DNA of 64,000 nucleotides from Pseudomonadota bacterium. Its GTDB lineage: Bacteria > Pseudomonadota > Alphaproteobacteria > Sphingomonadales > Sphingomonadaceae. Where the stretch lies: contig JAFAFE010000005.1 in NCBI GenBank assembly GCA_023423655.1, forward strand, positions 72,058 through 136,057, given 5' to 3'. A program made the translations under genes and the position numbers. Positions within the stretch are counted from its first letter, which is position 1, and every line of letters starts with the position of its first letter. The notes under the pieces were generated by a model. It was not told the DNA's origin. It ran no database searches and saw only the letters and a list, made by a program, of their open reading frames with translations. Of the stretch, positions 16,395 through 21,180 are shown piece after piece.

Positions 16395-17987
16395 ATGAGC
16401 TATAGTGAAGACATCTCCAAGGCTACGGCCGTCATCACCGGTAACGGCAAGCCGTGGGACGCGATTTCGGGTGAAAATATTGCCCGTATGCGCGCGCAGA
16501 ACCGTTTCAAATCGGGCGTCGATATTGCGCGTTACACCGCCAAGATCATGCGCGACGATATGGCCGCTTATGATGCCGACCCCGCCAATTACACGCAATC
16601 CTTGGGCTGCTGGCACGGGTTCATCGCGCAGCAAAAGCTGATTTCGATCAAGAAGCATTTCGGCACCACCAAAGGCCGCTATATCTATCTGTCGGGATGG
16701 ATGATTGCCGCGCTGCGCAGCGAATTCGGTCCGCTGCCCGACCAGTCGATGCACGAAAAAACCAGCGTTCCGGCGCTGATCGAGGAAATCTACACTTTCT
16801 TAAAGCAAGCCGATGCGCGCGAACTGGGCGGCCTGTTCCGCGAACTTGATGCGGCGCGCGATGCGGGCGACGAGGTCAAGGCCAAGCAGGTCCAGCATCA
16901 AATCGACAATTTCGAAACCCATGTCGTTCCGATCATCGCCGATATTGATGCAGGGTTCGGCAATGCGGAAGCCACCTATCTTCTCGCCAAGAAGATGATC
17001 GAAGCGGGCGCTTGTGCGCTGCAGATCGAAAACCAAGTGTCGGACGAAAAACAATGCGGTCACCAGGACGGCAAAGTCACGGTTCCGCATGAGGATTTCC
17101 TCGCGAAAATCCGTGCGCTGCGTTACGCTTTCATGGAAATGGGCGTTGAGGATGGCATCATTGTTTCCCGCACCGACAGCCTTGGCGCAGGCCTCACCAA
17201 GCAGATCGCCTTCACCCGCGAGCCCGGCGATATTGGTGACCAGTATAACAGCTTCCTCGATTGCGAAGAGGTGGATGGCGCGGGCAATCCGGGCGATGTC
17301 CTCATCAACCGCGATGGCAAGCTGATGCGTCCCAAGCGCCTGCCTTCGAACCTGTTCCAGTTCCGTGCCGGTTCGGGCGAAGACCGCTGCGTTCTCGATT
17401 GCATCACCTCGCTCCAAAATGGCGCGGACCTGTTGTGGATCGAAACCGAAAAGCCGCATATCGAACAGATTGCGGGCATGGTCGACCGTATCCGCGCGGT
17501 TATCCCGAATGCCAAGCTGGCCTATAATAATTCGCCTTCGTTCAACTGGACGCTGAATTTCCGCCAGCAAGTGTTCGATGCGTGGGAACAGGGCGGCAAG
17601 GATGTGTCGGCTTATGACCGGGCCAAGTTGATGAGCGTCGATTATGACGCCACCCCCTTGGCGCAGGAAGCCGATGACCGCATCCGCACTTTCCAGCGCG
17701 ATGCTGCGGCGCGGGCGGGGATTTTCCACCACCTCATCACGCTCCCGACCTATCATACGGCGGCGCTCTCGACCGATAACCTCGCCAAGGAATATTTCGG
17801 CGACCAAGGGATGCTCGGCTATGTCGAAGGCGTGCAGCGTAAGGAAATCCGCGAGGGCATTGCTTGTGTGAAGCACCAGAATATGTCGGGCAGCGACATT
17901 GGTGATGATCACAAGGAATATTTCTCCGGCGAAGCTGCGCTGAAAGCGGCGGGCAAGGACAATACGATGAACCAATTCGCGGCATAA
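16395..17987 (+). CDS. aceA: Isocitrate lyase (long ~530-aa form)
   Basis: 530-aa ORF with the ICL active-site region ENQVSDEKQCGHQDGKV, an RBS-like GAAGGGG upstream, and the expected divergent regulator. Confidence 0.85.
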   Translation: MSYSEDISKATAVITGNGKPWDAISGENIARMRAQNRFKSGVDIARYTAKIMRDDMAAYDADPANYTQSLGCWHGFIAQQKLISIKKHFGTTKGRYIYLSGWMIAALRSEFGPLPDQSMHEKTSVPALIEEIYTFLKQADARELGGLFRELDAARDAGDEVKAKQVQHQIDNFETHVVPIIADIDAGFGNAEATYLLAKKMIEAGACALQIENQVSDEKQCGHQDGKVTVPHEDFLAKIRALRYAFMEMGVEDGIIVSRTDSLGAGLTKQIAFTREPGDIGDQYNSFLDCEEVDGAGNPGDVLINRDGKLMRPKRLPSNLFQFRAGSGEDRCVLDCITSLQNGADLLWIETEKPHIEQIAGMVDRIRAVIPNAKLAYNNSPSFNWTLNFRQQVFDAWEQGGKDVSAYDRAKLMSVDYDATPLAQEADDRIRTFQRDAAARAGIFHHLITLPTYHTAALSTDNLAKEYFGDQGMLGYVEGVQRKEIREGIACVKHQNMSGSDIGDDHKEYFSGEAALKAAGKDNTMNQFAA

Positions 17988-18019
17988 CGCCGCGGGTGGG
18001 AACCAATTCGCGGCATAAC
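17969..18019 (+). repeat. 20-nt perfect direct repeat (17969-17988 and 18000-18019) that duplicates the last codons and stop of aceA
   Basis: GAACCAATTCGCGGCATAAC occurs twice, 31 bp apart. The flanking CCGCG..TGGG is also similar between the two copies. Confidence 0.9.
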
Positions 18020-18136
18020 ATCCGCGATGGGAGGACCGGCTGGCGCAACGAAGCCAGAGCCAGCCGGTTCCACCGACAAGACTAACGGCCCAGATTACCG
18101 ACCCTGATTACCGATGAAGAAGAAAGGAATATCGTT

Positions 18137-18307
18137 ATGCCAGAGCCAGCACGGTCCCGCGCGGTCCTTTCCACCGCCGATTTTGAATTGCTGCGCACAG
18201 CGGTGCTTCATTATCTGAAAGCCATCGAAGACAAGCCGGAATCGGTGGAATATGCCAATCTTTACCACCGCCTCGGTAGCGCGCTCGGCGCGCCAAAGGG
18301 AAGCTAA
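18137..18307 (+). CDS. Small 56-aa hypothetical protein downstream of aceA
   Basis: Not in the track (<60 aa). ATG follows GAAGAAGAAAGGAAT. Translation: MPEPARSRAVLSTADFELLRTAVLHYLKAIEDKPESVEYANLYHRLGSALGAPKGS. It looks protein-like, whereas the listed antisense ORF 18135..18323 does not. Confidence 0.5.
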   Translation: MPEPARSRAVLSTADFELLRTAVLHYLKAIEDKPESVEYANLYHRLGSALGAPKGS

Positions 18308-18375
18308 GGCCTGAACATTTCAAGATAAACGGCCGGTGGAGCGCCGGGTAAGCGCAAACACCGGAACCGCAACCG

Positions 18376-18431
18376 ATCTTTCCTGGGGAGGAAAGATAGC
18401 CGTCGGAAGGGGAAACCTTTCCGGCGGCTAT
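18376..18431 (+). terminator. Two adjacent stem-loops after the aceA/small-ORF unit. The second is a ~17-bp stem capped by a GAAA tetraloop.
   Basis: ATCTTTCC-TGGGGA-GGAAAGAT (18376-18397), and ATAGCCGTCGGAAGG-GAAA-CCTTTCCGGCGGCTAT (18396-18431) followed by TTC. The U-tract is weak. Confidence 0.35.
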
Positions 18432-18494
18432 TTCATGGGGAGCGAGGAGATGCGGGGCGGAGTATTAGGTCCGATTTGGGACTATTTGTGTGAG

Positions 18495-18509
18495 TGGCAG
18501 ATCGCCTGC
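18495..18509 (+). promoter_or_regulatory. Weak sigma-54-like -24/-12 element (TGGCAG-N6-TGC) inside the ORF-poor spacer
   Basis: GG at 18496-97 and GC at 18508-09 have the canonical 12-nt offset. The match outside GG/GC is poorer than for the two promoters at 22.3/22.5 kb. Confidence 0.25.
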
Positions 18510-18707
18510 CTGCCTGAGTGCGATTATTCCTTCATGCCCATCGGAGCGCGGGCATCCGATGCGGGTCTGATAACGCTAACAGGTGTCGACACCCCTTTAC
18601 AGGCACACAGCTTCAAGCCTTTCGGCGCAAGCCTCCACGCAAAAGCCCCCGCCCCTTCCAAGCGCGCCCACGCCTTCCACGCGCCCGCTCCCCCCCAAAA
18701 CGCAAAC

Positions 18708-18734
18708 GGGCGCTGGATATGAAACCCAGCGCCC
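18708..18734 (-). terminator. Intrinsic-terminator-like hairpin for a minus-strand transcript
   Basis: GGGCGCTGG-N9-CCAGCGCCC forms a perfect 9-bp GC stem. On the minus strand it is followed by GTTTGCGTTTTGGGG. Confidence 0.45.
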
Positions 18735-19332
18735 ACTGCGCTATCGTAAAAATAAGCGGACTTTCTTTGCCCTGAAGGTCAATGCCGTCCGTATTTTCGC
18801 GTCAGCGTCCGGAAAAACATGCGTCCAAACCTCTAAGGCCCAGCCGCCTGCTTCCTATAGGCCATCCGCCCGGTGAGGGGGGACAGCCGGACCTGTTCCG
18901 ATGATATGCTTATGCTTGGCCTTTAGCGGGACGCATCTGCCTCATCACCAACAGGGTGTGACGGTTTTGGATGTCCGGCCATTTTTGCCTAGGTGTTTGG
19001 GCAGCCTGAAAGCAAAAGCGGCGTTCATCCGCGATCATCACATGGTGAATTTTACGGTATCGCAGCCATGCCGTTTCATCGGTCTGCCGATCATCCGGTC
19101 CTCGCGTGAAGCAAGGTCCGGCCATCTTGTGACCGCGAACGGAGGCACGCCTTGGCAACCATTCACCACTCGCCCGTTGCGCCGCACAATCCGGTTTCTG
19201 ATCCCAAGCGCCGGTTTCTCATGGAAAACCATGTGAAATCCGGACCTCGCCGATCATCGCCATTGAGCTTTGCACCGTGTCGATAAGGTCAAGGTGACTC
19301 GCACCACCGAGTCGCGGCAAATGAAAAAATGC

Positions 19333-19371
19333 GATTTATCCACAGGAGTTTCAGTAAATTGTGGATAAGTC
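19333..19371 (-). terminator. Probable nadA terminator; the arms are also perfect DnaA-box 9-mers
   Basis: On the minus strand: GACTTATCCACA-N15-TGTGGATAAATC, then GCATTTTTTCATTT. It lies ~100 nt downstream of the nadA stop. Confidence 0.5.
19336..19368. promoter_or_regulatory. Inverted pair of consensus DnaA boxes (TTATCCACA / TGTGGATAA) separated by 15 nt
   Basis: Read directly: 19336-19344 and 19360-19368. A third 8/9 box, TGTCGATAA, lies at 19278-19286. Confidence 0.4.
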
Positions 19372-19467
19372 CACCTACGCGTAATTTAATTACGCGACAT
19401 ACGCCGCGCTACGCCCATATGGCCATGCGCGAAGGGATGCTGTTGCGGATTGCGTAAAGGGCCGCCG

Positions 19468-20469
19468 TTAAGGCCGCGGCCCCACATCGCCCTGCCCGAC
19501 TGTGCTTGAGGCCATCTCCAGCATCTTGTCGAGGCTGCGCTTGGCGGCGAGGCGCAATTCTTCGTCAATTTCGACACGCGGCTCCAGATCGCGCAGCGCG
19601 AGATAGAGTTTTTCCATCGTATTCAATGCCATATAGGGGCAGACATTACAGTTGCAGTTGCCGTCCGCGCCCGGTGCGCCGATAAAAGTCTTTTCCGGCA
19701 CCGCTTTTTCCATCTGGTGGATGATATGCGGTTCGGTCGCGACAATCAGCGTGTCGCCTTCCATCGTCTTGGCATAATTTAAAATGCCGCTGGTGGAGCC
19801 CACATAATCGGCATGTTCGACAATATAGCCCGGACATTCGGGGTGGGCAGCGACCGGCGCGTCGGGATGCTGCGCCTTCAATTTGATCAGCTCGGTTTCG
19901 CTAAACGCTTCATGGACGATGCACACGCCCGGCCATAACAGCATCTCGCGGCCCAGCTTGCGCGACAAATAACCGCCCAGATGCTTGTCGGGGCCAAAGA
20001 TGATTTTCTGTTCGGGCGGGATTTGCGACAGGATTTTTTCCGCCGAGGACGAGGTCACGATCACATCGGACAGTGCCTTCACCTCGGTCGAACAGTTGAT
20101 ATAGGTGAGCGCGATATGGTCGGGATGCGCTTCGCGAAACGCTTTGAACTGCGCGGGCGGGCAGCTATCTTCAAGACTGCATCCCGCGTCCAGATCCGGC
20201 AGCACGACAATTTTTTCGGGCGACAAAATCTTGGCGGTATCGGCCATGAATTTGACCCCGCAAAAAGCGATAACATCGGCGTCGGTTTCCGCTGCTTTGC
20301 GCGACAATTCAAGGCTGTCACCGACAAAATCGGCAATATCCTGGATTTCCGGCTTTTGGTAATAATGGGCGAGGATCACCGCATTGCGCTCTTTGCGCAA
20401 ACGTTCAATCTCTGCGCGAATATCGACACCCTGCAAGGTGCCGCCGATACCGTTACGTGCGTCCATCAT
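19468..20469 (-). CDS. nadA: Quinolinate synthase
   Basis: 333-aa ORF with NAVILAHYYQKPEIQDIADFVGDSLELS and conserved cysteine regions (GCSLEDSC, YINCSTEV, CNCNVCPYM). Confidence 0.95.
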   Translation of the reverse strand: MMDARNGIGGTLQGVDIRAEIERLRKERNAVILAHYYQKPEIQDIADFVGDSLELSRKAAETDADVIAFCGVKFMADTAKILSPEKIVVLPDLDAGCSLEDSCPPAQFKAFREAHPDHIALTYINCSTEVKALSDVIVTSSSAEKILSQIPPEQKIIFGPDKHLGGYLSRKLGREMLLWPGVCIVHEAFSETELIKLKAQHPDAPVAAHPECPGYIVEHADYVGSTSGILNYAKTMEGDTLIVATEPHIIHQMEKAVPEKTFIGAPGADGNCNCNVCPYMALNTMEKLYLALRDLEPRVEIDEELRLAAKRSLDKMLEMASSTVGQGDVGPRP

Positions 20470-20559
20470 TCATCCCTTTATAGTTGCCCCCTAAATGGCG
20501 GCAGCGGGACGATTGCGCAAGACCTATGGGCAATCCGCTCTGCCGATGGCGCGTATGGC

Positions 20560-21180
20560 TCAGCCTTCGTCGGCAAAATAGACTTTGACGCCCGCATCCA
20601 CGCCGGCGGATTTGAGCGGGGCGCTAAAGCTGCGTTTGACGATAGCGCGCACCGCCGCCTTGGCTTGCTCCATCGGGCCTTTGGCGCGGGCTTGTTCCAA
20701 AAGTTGGGCTTCGGCGCTGCGGCGGCTGGCGCGGTCGATGCCGCCCTCTTTTTTGGCGAGCGGAACGGGCTTGCCCCCGCCGCGCCAGCGCGCAATCGCG
20801 TCATGGACAATATCCGGCCCGTTCACGCGCAATTTCGGGAGCTTTATCTCCAGCTCCTTGGTGGTTGCATTCCATTCAAGATCGGAAGCGCGCACGCCTT
20901 CGACATCGACTTCATAACGCACCGTGCCGGGGACAAGGAGCAATTGCGGCGACCCCGCCGACGATACGGTTTGCGGCACCACCGCGACATAGCGCGCGAT
21001 GAAGGGGGTCAGCACTTGCTGTTCTTTCAGCGTTTCGAGGCTGGCCTGAACGATCATTTGCGGGTCGCCATCAGGGGTCGCAGCACGGCGGCTATTCCAT
21101 CCGGCGAGGAGACCGATAAGGATGAGGGCGGCGATGCCCCATCCCCATAAGCGGTTGCCGCCGGGCAATGCACCGCTCAT
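20560..21180 (-). CDS. DUF4230-like membrane-anchored protein
   Basis: ORF 20560..21195. ATG 21180 overlaps the upstream stop as ATGA. It has a single N-terminal TM helix (WGWGIAALILIGLLAGW). Confidence 0.6.
   Translation of the reverse strand: MSGALPGGNRLWGWGIAALILIGLLAGWNSRRAATPDGDPQMIVQASLETLKEQQVLTPFIARYVAVVPQTVSSAGSPQLLLVPGTVRYEVDVEGVRASDLEWNATTKELEIKLPKLRVNGPDIVHDAIARWRGGGKPVPLAKKEGGIDRASRRSAEAQLLEQARAKGPMEQAKAAVRAIVKRSFSAPLKSAGVDAGVKVYFADEG

What the first reader, a model, noticed from the sequence alone, without database searches (positions are those of the whole stretch)
18308..19467. A 1.16 kb ORF-poor spacer between two convergent genes, carrying several transcription signals
aceA plus a small ORF (plus strand) and nadA (minus strand) converge on this region. 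It contains only short, compositionally unconvincing ORFs. It does contain:
- a long GNRA-capped hairpin (18396-18431)
- a sigma-54-like TGGCAG-N6-TGC element (18495-18509)
- overlapping alternative stems ATGCCC/GGGCAT and CATCGGA/TCCGATG (18534-18561)
- a perfect 12-bp palindrome GGTGTCGACACC (18582-18593)
- a strong minus-strand terminator-like hairpin (18708-18734) that is too far from nadA to be its terminator

The last item implies at least one additional unannotated minus-strand transcription unit between ~18735 and ~19330.
Basis: seen in the sequence. Interest (0 to 1): 0.6.

Follow-up and report, generated by a model that had tools for sequence, protein, structure and literature searches.

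The report
Unannotated DnaA-box-driven structured RNA gene
The seemingly empty 1.16-kb gap between aceA and nadA most likely holds an unannotated gene for a roughly 590-nucleotide, heavily folded non-coding RNA; its promoter carries binding sites for the replication initiator DnaA and a cell-cycle methylation site, and it is a relocated, divergent member of an uncatalogued RNA family found across the Sphingomonadaceae.

Summary
The minus-strand terminator at 18705-18737 ends an unannotated transcription unit.

- **Conservation:** The block 18696-19168 is conserved in both congeners at about 70% identity. Its indels are not multiples of three, and it has no Pfam or Rfam match.
- **Structure:** 24 base pairs show compensatory changes. 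The fold z-score is -5.4.
- **Promoter:** Upstream lie two inverted perfect DnaA boxes. Exactly 22 nt further on lies a GANTC site, just after a TTGCCG -35 element, followed by a -10 element and a predicted start near 19284.
- **Family:** The same promoter module and terminator (GCGCAGTGGG...) flank 350-750-nt structured, ORF-less RNAs in at least 39 of 112 sampled Sphingomonadaceae genera, normally between argG and rlpA. Here the gene sits between nadA and aceA, and its body is divergent.
- **Other listed signals:** The GAAA-capped hairpin is the conserved terminator of the aceA operon. The sigma-54-like site, the alternative stems and the 12-bp palindrome lie in a non-conserved 260-nt filler and occur at chance frequency.
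- **Not shown:** Transcription, DnaA binding and function are inferred.
- **Prior notes:** This scan has noted RNAs of the same class on other DNA (e1-5225736, e1-5232186 and others).

The parts
18378..18395 (+). Small hairpin CTTTCC-TGGGGA-GGAAAG, just upstream of the aceA-operon terminator.
   Evidence: Read from the sequence. It is conserved with the following hairpin in G001, G002 and G003.
18396..18438 (+). GAAA-capped 16-bp hairpin with a short T tract. Probable intrinsic terminator or 3' stabiliser of the aceA/56-aa-ORF operon.
   Evidence: Inverted repeat I1. The block 18374-18438 is 82-89% identical in G001, G002 and G003.
18439..18694 (.). Lineage-specific filler between the two convergent terminators. 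It holds the sigma-54-like site (18495-18509), the alternative stems (18534-18561), the 12-bp palindrome (18582-18593) and degenerate C-rich direct repeats (18634-18696).
   Evidence: It does not align to G001 or G002. G001 has about 35 nt here, and G002 has about 480 nt with a lipoprotein-like ORF. Pattern frequencies are at chance level.
18697..19284 (-). Predicted non-coding RNA gene of about 590 nt. The 5' end is predicted within about 5 nt; the 3' end is the U tract after the terminator.
   Evidence: The fold has MFE -246.6 kcal/mol against -212.7 +/- 6.3 for shuffles, z = -5.37. The gene is conserved in the congeners. It has no Pfam match, no Rfam match and no conserved ORF.
18696..19168 (-). 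Conserved structured core of the RNA. It contains invariant stretches of 15-25 nt separated by variable, compensating helices.
   Evidence: Identity to G002 and G001 is 69-71%, and the indels are not multiples of three. RNAalifold predicts 131 pairs. Of these, 24 show changes on both sides against 11.0 +/- 2.4 in shuffles. Pairing is 90.7% against 36-44% when the partners are slid.
18705..18737 (-). Intrinsic terminator of the RNA gene: stem GGGCGCTGG/CCAGCGCCC, preceded by GCGCAGT and followed by GTTTGCGTTTT.
   Evidence: Terminator scan. It is invariant in the congeners. Copies 84-87% identical exist in four genomes of another genus. The stem covaries across genera.
19292..19297 (-). Predicted -10 element, TCACCT. 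The family consensus is CAyyyT.
   Evidence: Alignment of 33 loci. It lies 17 nt downstream of the -35 element. This is an inference.
19296..19300 (.). Second GANTC site (GAGTC on the RNA strand), overlapping the -10 region.
   Evidence: It is shared with L018 and L023 only.
19309..19313 (.). GANTC site (GACTC on the RNA strand), the CcrM methylation motif, exactly 22 nt from the proximal DnaA box.
   Evidence: It occupies the same position in 30 of 33 loci. It also does so in 4 of 5 loci found independently through the 3' domain, and there N varies (GAATC).
19315..19320 (-). Predicted -35 element, TTGCCG. The family consensus is TTGCSC.
19336..19344 (+). Proximal DnaA box, a perfect TTATCCACA on the + strand. 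It is centred about 55 nt upstream of the predicted start.
   Evidence: It is conserved in the congeners and across genera.
19360..19368 (-). Distal DnaA box, a perfect TTATCCACA on the - strand. It faces the proximal box head-to-head across 15 bp.
   Evidence: I2. The genome has only 19 perfect boxes, and the only other cluster is at hemE/oriC on contig C7.
19378..19396 (.). AT-rich perfect 19-nt palindrome, CGCGTAATTTAATTACGCG, upstream of the boxes. Its role is unknown. In the congeners it could act as the -10 (TATAAT) of a divergent + strand promoter.
   Evidence: Read from the sequence. It is partly conserved in G001 and G002.

Best explanation
**What the spacer contains.** It has three parts.
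1. **18378-18438 (+):** the conserved double hairpin that ends the aceA/56-aa-ORF operon.
2. **18439-18694:** about 260 nt of lineage-specific filler. Its sigma-54-like site, alternative stems and palindrome are chance features.
3. **A self-contained minus-strand gene.** The promoter spans 19368-19292, the predicted start is near 19284, and the terminator spans 18737-18697. It encodes a highly structured non-coding RNA of about 590 nt.

**How it most likely works.** The sigma-70-type promoter (TTGCCG, 17 nt, TCACCT) is flanked upstream by two head-to-head consensus DnaA boxes. It carries GANTC methylation sites between and over its two elements. Synthesis of the RNA is therefore predicted to depend on DnaA occupancy. 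It may also depend on the CcrM/GcrA methylation state, which would tie it to replication initiation and the cell cycle.

The product acts as a folded RNA, such as a protein-binding or scaffold RNA. It is not an mRNA or a short base-pairing sRNA. Its partner is unknown.

**Family.** It is a relocated member of an uncatalogued Sphingomonadaceae family that normally lies between argG and rlpA. Its body has diverged from the rest of the family.

**Shown:** conservation, non-coding character, covariation, fold stability, the promoter and terminator module shared across genera, and the position away from oriC.

**Inferred:** that it is transcribed, the exact 5' end, DnaA and GcrA/CcrM control, and the mode of action.
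For: **Conservation without coding.** Three conserved blocks appear in both congeners. The alignment shows long invariant runs and indels that break frame. There is no Pfam match, no Rfam match at E <= 1, no tRNA or tmRNA, and no ORF conserved across genera.

**Structure.**
- The fold z-score is -5.37. Eight other family members give z = -2.2 to -5.3 on the sense strand.
- In the genus alignment, 24 pairs change on both sides against 11.0 +/- 2.4 in shuffles. Pairing is 90.7% against 36-44% for slid controls.
- In the 3' domain across 18 genomes, 10 pairs change on both sides against 5.1 in shuffles. Pairing is 94.8% against about 38%.

**Strand.** The terminator's T tract is on the minus strand. 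The 4-mer CGGA occurs 339 times against 86 for TCCG, and GGAA 246 times against 25 for TTCC. Many G-U pairs are predicted.

**Promoter module.**
- The pattern GTGGATAA-N22-GACTCGG (up to 1 mismatch) is found in 92 of 401 Sphingomonadaceae genomes and 39 of 112 genera. The matches share an extended consensus beyond the pattern.
- The alignment of 33 loci shows the boxes, -35, GANTC, -10 and a yATCGrAA start motif in register.
- Five loci found only through the 3' domain all carry the box module, and four of them have GANTC at the same spacing.

**Same unit elsewhere.** The terminator is conserved across genera. The usual context is argG upstream and rlpA downstream.

**Not oriC.** GC skew is monotone across contig C3. 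The only other cluster of perfect boxes is at hemE on contig C7, which is where Sphingomonadaceae origins lie (PMC4741004).

**Cell-cycle machinery.** GcrA is encoded in this genome.
Against:
- **The simple promoter scan found no sigma-70 consensus in the region**. The proposed -10 (TCACCT) is weak, and the start site is only predicted.
- **The RNA body here is not demonstrably homologous to the main family.** The 3'-domain covariance model gives only 11.6 bits on this locus. That is less than a chance hit on the aceA terminator at 18.5 bits. An nhmmer profile of the family body finds nothing. Family membership therefore rests on the promoter, the 5' motif and the terminator.
- **The genus alignment has only three sequences,** and the structure tested was predicted from those same sequences.
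- **The first ~115 nt of the predicted RNA (19169-19284) is poorly conserved** within the genus.
- **The GANTC position does not match Caulobacter closely.** It is centred near -27, with a second site near -14. GcrA-dependent sites in Caulobacter cluster around -20 (PMC4647560). The site also departs from YGAKTCK at the central base.
- **The window copy has two boxes,** not the three seen in most genera.
Confidence: 0.72

Rival explanations
1. The functional element is the DNA, not the RNA. On this reading the conserved DnaA-box cluster is a DARS- or datA-like chromosomal site that titrates or recharges DnaA. The adjacent transcript is incidental, or it only modulates access to the boxes.
For: The boxes and their spacing are the most conserved feature across genera, while the RNA body diverges beyond recognition between lineages. 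Most genera have two tandem boxes plus one opposed box. That layout is the same as in the E. coli DARS core, where boxes I and II are head-to-head and II and III head-to-tail (PMC6868365). DARS1 also overlaps a promoter region (from my own knowledge).
Against: - The transcribed body shows compensatory base-pair changes and strongly negative fold z-scores in every lineage tested.
- A sequence-conserved terminator and a conserved 5' motif travel with the boxes.
- The opposed boxes are 15-16 bp apart, not 5 bp as in DARS (PMC6868365).
- The window copy has only two boxes.
- The two readings are not mutually exclusive.
Confidence: 0.12
2. The block is a decayed protein gene, or it encodes a small protein, and the apparent structure is a by-product of GC-rich sequence.
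For: Mechanical ORFs of 64-111 aa cover parts of the block on both strands. The genome has about 59% GC, so spurious stems are common.
Against: - None of nine ORFs has a Pfam match above noise.
- ORF positions, lengths and frames differ in every genus. One family member has no ORF longer than 23 codons.
- Indels of 1-2 nt occur inside the conserved stretches.
- Invariant runs of 15-25 nt show no third-position wobble.
- The z-scores come from dinucleotide-preserving shuffles, which control for composition.
Confidence: 0.03
3. The conserved block is a long 3' UTR of nadA or a read-through tail. Alternatively, it is an antisense regulator of the convergent aceA operon and not an independent gene.
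For: nadA is on the same strand, about 100 nt upstream of the boxes, and has no obvious terminator of its own. The RNA's terminator faces the aceA-operon terminator.
Against: - In both congeners nadA is about 3 kb away, behind an opposite-strand protease operon, yet the block and the boxes are retained.
- In most genera the same module follows argG instead.
- The predicted transcript stops about 260 nt short of the aceA-operon terminator, so it does not overlap that operon.
Confidence: 0.06
4. The locus is a secondary or cryptic replication origin, or a remnant of a plasmid or prophage origin.
For: It has two perfect DnaA boxes next to an AT-rich palindrome.
Against: - GC skew does not switch here, and the oriC-type box cluster sits at hemE on another contig.
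- There is no match in the plasmid collection.
- The locus is single-copy in the genome.
- The flanking genes converge rather than diverge.
- No replication initiator gene is adjacent.
Confidence: 0.02

Closest known systems
Orphan large structured bacterial ncRNAs (OLE RF01071, ROOL, GOLLD, raiA-motif RNA)
   Same: It is a stand-alone gene with its own promoter and terminator. It is several hundred nucleotides long and ORF-less. It has many tetraloop-capped helices (GAAA, GCAA, UUCG), covariation, and a lineage-restricted distribution.
   Different: It matches no Rfam family at E <= 1. The body sequence evolves much faster between genera. None of those RNAs is defined by a DnaA-box/GANTC promoter, as far as I know. 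Whether it forms multimeric cages, as ROOL and GOLLD do, is unknown.
CcnA, the cell-cycle non-coding RNA of Caulobacter crescentus (PMC8959179)
   Same: It is an alphaproteobacterial ncRNA whose promoter is wired to the replication and cell-cycle machinery. It would be the nearest functional analogue if the predicted DnaA and GcrA/CcrM control is real.
   Different: CcnA is 182 nt long and lies inside the origin. It has a CtrA box at its promoter, and it acts by pairing with the ctrA and gcrA 5' UTRs (PMC8959179). The RNA here is about 590 nt and lies far from oriC. It has DnaA boxes upstream of its -35. It is too tightly folded to look like a pairing sRNA, and no complementary targets were found.
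DARS1/DARS2 core of E. coli (DnaA-reactivating sequences; PMC6868365)
   Same: Both are a cluster of DnaA boxes outside oriC in which two boxes face each other head-to-head. In most genera of this family a third box lies in tandem. The cluster sits in an intergenic promoter region.
   Different: The spacing between the opposed boxes is 15-16 bp, not 5 bp. The window copy has two boxes. No IHF or Fis region was identified. The locus is tied to a conserved structured transcript. No DARS has been described in Alphaproteobacteria, to my knowledge.
GcrA/CcrM-dependent methylated sigma-70 promoters of Caulobacter (PMC4647560)
   Same: A GANTC site is fixed inside the core promoter, and only its N position varies across genera. 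GcrA is encoded in the genome.
   Different: The site is centred near -27 rather than -20. The sequence CGACTCG departs from YGAKTCK at the central base. Methylation and GcrA dependence were not tested.

Membership tests
Sphingomonadaceae DnaA-box-linked large RNA (uncatalogued; usually argG-rlpA) | An inverted DnaA box (GTGGATAA on the RNA strand) exactly 22 nt upstream of GANTC, with a TTGnnn -35 element between them. | tested here: met
   The window has GTGGATAAATCGCATTTTTTCATTTGCCGCGACTCGG, a zero-mismatch match. It aligns in register with 32 other loci.
Sphingomonadaceae DnaA-box-linked large RNA (uncatalogued; usually argG-rlpA) | At least one further DnaA box upstream, head-to-head with the proximal box at 15-16 bp. 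| tested here: met
   A perfect box lies at 19360-19368, 15 bp from the box at 19336-19344. The third, tandem box seen in most genera is absent or degenerate here.
Sphingomonadaceae DnaA-box-linked large RNA (uncatalogued; usually argG-rlpA) | A 5' start motif yATCGrAA about 59 nt after the proximal box. | tested here: met
   The window has TTATCGACA at the aligned position, against a consensus of TCATCGGAA.
Sphingomonadaceae DnaA-box-linked large RNA (uncatalogued; usually argG-rlpA) | A sequence-conserved terminator: GCGCAGTGGG or GAGAGTGGGG, a stem, then CCCrTTT. | tested here: met
   Identity to genus g58 is 84-87%. The terminators are aligned.
Sphingomonadaceae DnaA-box-linked large RNA (uncatalogued; usually argG-rlpA) | The 3' domain (CCGGAyGC, the CGGCG-CGAG-CGCCG hairpin, GCGACAUA ...), as captured by covariance model R1. 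| tested here: not met
   R1 scores only 11.6 bits at 18698-18818 (-), below a chance hit of 18.5 bits on the aceA terminator. An nhmmer body profile gives no hit. R1 finds 26 of 37 family genomes.
Sphingomonadaceae DnaA-box-linked large RNA (uncatalogued; usually argG-rlpA) | Synteny: immediately downstream of argG and upstream of rlpA. | tested here: not met
   Of 30 loci, 29 follow argG. Here the gene lies between nadA and aceA. The genome's own argG (C7:376732-377937) has a low-GC ORF downstream instead.
Sphingomonadaceae DnaA-box-linked large RNA (uncatalogued; usually argG-rlpA) | ORF-less, strongly structured and single-copy. | tested here: met
Any Rfam 15 family | A covariance-model match. 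| tested here: not met
   No match at E <= 1 in window 17000-21000. No relevant match in eight related loci. RNase P RNA lies elsewhere, at C6:64643-65060.
DARS core (E. coli) | Three DnaA boxes, with I and II head-to-head across 5 bp and III in tandem with II. | tested here: not met
   The window has two boxes, head-to-head across 15 bp. The DARS spacing and orientation are taken from PMC6868365.
DARS core (E. coli) | Promotes ADP release from DnaA. | not testable with these tools
   This needs a biochemical assay.
CcnA (Caulobacter) | Lies within oriC, has a CtrA box at the promoter, and is about 182 nt long. | tested here: not met
   oriC is at hemE on contig C7. The predicted RNA is about 590 nt. 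No TTAA-N7-TTAA was seen in 19280-19470 when reading the sequence.
Sigma-54 promoter (for 18495-18509) | A GG-N10-GC core that is conserved in relatives. | tested here: not met
   The core is present, but the pattern occurs at chance frequency. The surrounding DNA is absent from the congeners.

The most novel reading that the evidence does not exclude
The DnaA boxes, the methylation-sensitive promoter and the large folded RNA together form a replication-initiation feedback module. On this reading the RNA is made only when DnaA is active and the locus is in a particular methylation state. It then acts back on DnaA or on the cell-cycle machinery, for example by binding a regulator or by gating a DARS-like recharging site. 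The scan has noted analogous DnaA-box-linked large RNAs in Caulobacterales, Maricaulales and other Alphaproteobacteria. If those notes hold, this would be a widespread, undescribed RNA layer of alphaproteobacterial cell-cycle control.
Probability: 0.2. Interest if true: 0.9.

Novelty: new variant of a known kind. Interest (0 to 1): 0.7.

Why it matters
- **Annotation.** What looks like a 1.16-kb gene-free gap is most likely a gene. The same unannotated gene appears to exist in a large share of Sphingomonadaceae genomes, a family important in bioremediation and in plant and marine microbiomes.
- **A new class feature.** Large structured bacterial RNAs are rare, and most have unknown functions. 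One whose promoter is hard-wired to the replication initiator DnaA and to a CcrM methylation site would link RNA biology to bacterial cell-cycle control. So far only CcnA in Caulobacter is a described example of that link.
- **Evolution.** The family has conserved ends (promoter, 5' motif, terminator) and a fast-evolving but always highly folded body. This window shows that the whole unit can move as a cassette.
- **Testability.** The predictions can be tested in culturable sphingomonads with standard genetics.

Tried and rejected
1. **Known RNA.** Rfam gave nothing at E <= 1 for the window region and for eight related loci. ARAGORN found no tRNA or tmRNA. A GGAAAGUCCG motif suggested RNase P, but the real RNase P RNA is on contig C6.
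2. **oriC.** Rejected on GC skew and on the hemE-linked box cluster.
3. **Plasmid or mobile origin.** No match in the plasmid collection. The locus is single-copy in the genome.
4. **CsrB-like protein sponge.** The 4-mer CGGA is the commonest and is strand-biased. However, the genome has no CsrA. The GGA of CGGA is unpaired in only 29% of cases against a 36% background. Rejected.
5. **Base-pairing regulator.** A genome search for complements of nine invariant stretches found only the locus itself at zero mismatches and nothing notable otherwise.
6. **Small protein.** No ORF is conserved across genera, and there is no Pfam match.
7. **More relatives of this genus's RNA body.**
   - The genome contigs pattern scan returned only the two known congeners plus one chance hit.
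   - The metagenome pattern scan found nothing.
   - BLAST across 400 family genomes matched only the ends.
8. **Body homology to the main family.** Neither nhmmer nor the covariance model supports it.
9. **The three-box layout outside the family.** A sample of 400 Alphaproteobacteria gave two other genomes, and there it precedes a protein gene.
10. **Literature.**
   - No paper was found describing an argG-rlpA or DnaA-box-linked RNA in sphingomonads.
   - A 2025 preprint states that SuhB is the only sRNA characterised in Sphingopyxis granuli TFA (10.64898/2025.12.09.693200, abstract).
Full report
**Setting**

The window comes from a 2.93-Mb Sphingomonadaceae genome (contig C3:72058-136057).
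- The ORF at 16395-17987 (+) is an isocitrate lyase.
- The ORF at 19468-20469 (-) is quinolinate synthase NadA (Pfam).
- A 56-aa ORF lies at 18137-18307 (+).

The spacer 18308-19467 therefore does lie between convergent genes. None of its mechanical ORFs has a Pfam match above noise. Rfam gives nothing at E <= 1 over 17000-21000, and ARAGORN finds nothing.

**What is conserved**

A search of 40 relatives found the spacer only in the two other species of the genus, G001 and G002. It appears there as three separate blocks:
- 18374-18438, the GAAA-capped hairpin;
- 18696-19168, at 69-71% identity over about 470 nt;
- 19275-19393, which includes the DnaA boxes.

The stretch 18439-18695 is not conserved. 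It carries the sigma-54-like site, the alternative stems and the 12-bp palindrome. G001 has about 35 nt in its place. G002 has about 480 nt with a lipoprotein-like ORF. TGGCA-N7-TGC occurs 5 times in the window against 2.75 expected. About 16 perfect 12-bp palindromes are expected per 64 kb. I treat these three signals as chance.

The hairpin at 18396-18431 has 16-nt arms and a GAAA loop. It is preceded by a small CTTTCC/GGAAAG hairpin, and the pair is conserved. It is the 3' end of the aceA/56-aa-ORF operon.

**The central block is a structured RNA on the minus strand**
- **Sequence pattern.** The three-way alignment shows invariant runs of 15-25 nt separated by variable segments. Some indels are 1-2 nt long. 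This does not fit coding sequence.
- **Covariation.** RNAalifold predicts 131 pairs. On that structure 90.7% of cells pair, against 36-44% when the partners are slid. Twenty-four pairs change on both sides, against 11.0 +/- 2.4 in shuffles. The caveat is that there are only three sequences and the structure was derived from them.
- **Fold stability.** The predicted transcript folds at -246.6 kcal/mol, against -212.7 +/- 6.3 for dinucleotide shuffles. That gives z = -5.37.

**The promoter block and the family**

BLAST of the RNA strand against 400 genomes of the family hit only the two ends. The terminator matched at 84-87% identity in four genomes of another genus. The DnaA-box region matched in several further genera. 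Reading those loci showed the same architecture each time:
- DnaA boxes;
- exactly 22 nt further on, CGACTCGG;
- then a yATCGrAA motif;
- then a purine-rich, ORF-less body of 330-750 nt;
- then the same terminator.

The pattern GTGGATAA-N22-GACTCGG (up to 1 mismatch) occurs in 92 of 401 sampled genomes and 39 of 112 genera. The matches share an extended consensus beyond the pattern.

An alignment of 33 loci puts the following in register:
- two tandem boxes (TTATCCACC, TTGTCCACw);
- an opposed box 15-16 bp away;
- a TTGCSC -35 element;
- GANTC immediately after it;
- a CAyyyT -10 element 17 nt from the -35;
- the conserved start motif.

Those loci were partly selected by the pattern. I therefore checked five loci found only through the 3' domain of the RNA. 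All five carry the box module, and four have GANTC at the same spacing. In those four the site reads GAATC instead of GACTC. So the constraint is on GANTC, the CcrM methylation motif, and not on the surrounding letters.

In window coordinates:

| Element | Coordinates |
|---|---|
| DnaA boxes | 19360-19368 and 19336-19344 |
| -35 | 19320-19315 |
| GANTC sites | 19313-19309 and 19300-19296 |
| -10 | 19297-19292 |
| Predicted start | about 19284 |
| 3' end | about 18697 |

**These are RNAs, not proteins or DNA-only elements**
- **No coding signal.** No ORF is conserved across genera. One member has nothing longer than 23 codons.
- **Fold stability.** Eight further members give sense-strand z-scores of -2.2 to -5.3.
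- **Covariation.** The 3' domain of 18 genomes from the main group supports a hand-refined structure. In it, 94.8% of cells pair, against about 38% for slid controls. Ten pairs change on both sides, against 5.1 in shuffles.
- **Distribution.** A covariance model of that domain (R1) finds 26 of 37 sampled Sphingomonadaceae genomes. It gives only three weak hits (E > 1e-4) in the other families of the order.
- **Strand bias.** CGGA occurs 339 times against 86 for TCCG, and GGAA 246 times against 25 for TTCC.

**How this copy differs from the rest of the family**
- **Position.** In 29 of 30 loci the gene follows argG, and in about half rlpA comes next. In this genome argG lies at C7:376732-377937 and is followed by a low-GC ORF instead. 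The RNA gene sits between nadA and aceA in all three species of the genus. The two congeners also carry an opposite-strand serralysin-type RTX protease operon between the boxes and nadA. This rules out a nadA 3' UTR.
- **Body.** R1 scores only 11.6 bits on this locus, less than a chance hit on the aceA terminator. An nhmmer profile of the family body finds nothing in this genus. Membership rests on the promoter, the 5' motif and the terminator. I therefore call it a divergent variant.
- **Boxes.** This copy has two boxes rather than three.

**Not an origin**

GC skew is monotone along contig C3. The genome has 19 perfect TTATCCACA boxes. The only other cluster is at C7:199.6-201.1 kb, next to hemE. 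That is where Sphingomonadaceae origins are placed (PMC4741004).

**Mechanism**

The boxes lie upstream of the -35 element. The proximal box is centred near -55, a position compatible with activation. GANTC lies inside the core promoter, and GcrA is encoded in the genome. In Caulobacter, GcrA acts at methylated GANTC sites near -20 or at +2 to +30 (PMC4647560). Here the site is near -27, with a second near -14, so the analogy is imperfect.

My best reading is that RNA synthesis is coupled to DnaA status and possibly to methylation state. My estimates:

| Claim | Probability |
|---|---|
| The RNA gene is real | about 0.85 |
| It is controlled by DnaA | about 0.6 |
| It is controlled by CcrM/GcrA | about 0.4 |

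What the RNA does is not known.
- A CsrB-like sponge is unlikely. The genome has no CsrA, and the CGGA motifs are not preferentially unpaired.
- A pairing sRNA is unlikely, given the tight fold and the lack of complementary targets.
- A protein-binding or scaffold role is what remains, and this is an inference.

The main rival reading is that the box cluster itself is a DARS-like DnaA-recharging site. The DARS core has a similar layout, but its opposed boxes are 5 bp apart (PMC6868365). That reading cannot explain the structural constraint on the transcript, though the two could coexist.

**Novelty and earlier notes**

I found no Rfam family and no paper describing such an RNA in sphingomonads. 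After I had reached this reading, the scan's notebook showed that other agents had reported RNAs of the same class:
- one between argG and rlpA in Erythrobacter-type bacteria (e1-5225736);
- a second copy in a Sphingomonadaceae genome with DnaA and GcrA sites (e1-5232186);
- analogous DnaA-box-linked RNAs in Caulobacteraceae, Brevundimonas, Maricaulis-type and uncultured marine Alphaproteobacteria.

These are unchecked notes. They agree with what I found independently. I tested the argG-rlpA context and the DnaA/GANTC promoter myself.

**Limits**

The start site is predicted only from promoter geometry.

Noticed in passing
window 18137-18307 (+): The 56-aa ORF after aceA is conserved. It has 77% amino-acid identity to the G001 homologue (MAEPTRSRAVLSTADFELLR...). 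The DNA block 18118-18289 is 73-79% identical in both congeners. It is probably a real small gene co-transcribed with aceA. It has no Pfam family.
   Followed up: partly
L004:1490-1570 (G003, another genus): The double hairpin that ends the aceA operon (CTTTCCTGGGGAGGAAAG plus a long stem) recurs at 89% identity in a genus where it follows the regulator-gene promoter region with no aceA in between. Either aceA was lost there, or the hairpin pair is a portable 3' module.
   Followed up: no
L011:1696-4346 and L012:3447-6182 (congeners G002, G001): Between the RNA gene's DnaA boxes and nadA, both congeners carry a + strand pair of genes that this genome lacks. One is a 176-189-aa ORF with no Pfam family. 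The other is a ~700-aa serralysin-type metalloprotease with RTX repeats (Peptidase_M10_C, HemolysinCabind). The AT-rich palindrome next to the boxes reads TATAAT in G001 and could be its -10 element.
   Followed up: partly
own genome C7:377940-378820: Downstream of argG, where most Sphingomonadaceae carry this RNA gene, this genome has a low-GC ORF of about 300 codons that looks like an insertion. It might mark the event that displaced or replaced the RNA gene.
   Followed up: no
own genome C7:199600-201200: Five of the genome's 19 perfect DnaA boxes cluster around hemE (C7:199717-200706). This is the probable oriC.
   Followed up: partly
window 18634-18696: Degenerate C-rich direct repeats of 19-21 nt (TCCACGC...CCCC, 71-74% identity) lie just beyond the RNA terminator. 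On the RNA strand they form G runs. They are not conserved in the congeners.
   Followed up: no
33 family loci (L002-L060), RNA strand: CGGA is the commonest 4-mer in these RNAs (339 occurrences against 86 for its complement), and GGAA outnumbers TTCC 246 to 25. The motif lies mostly inside predicted stems, so it is not an obvious loop-displayed protein site. The cause is unexplained.
   Followed up: partly
L075:1490-1545 and L076 (two genomes of another alphaproteobacterial family, low GC): The same three-box layout (TTATCCACAGTTATCCACA, about 15 nt, GGTGGATAA) occurs there. About 70 nt downstream it is followed by a protein gene starting MQAGFSALDIVF, not by an RNA.
   Followed up: partly
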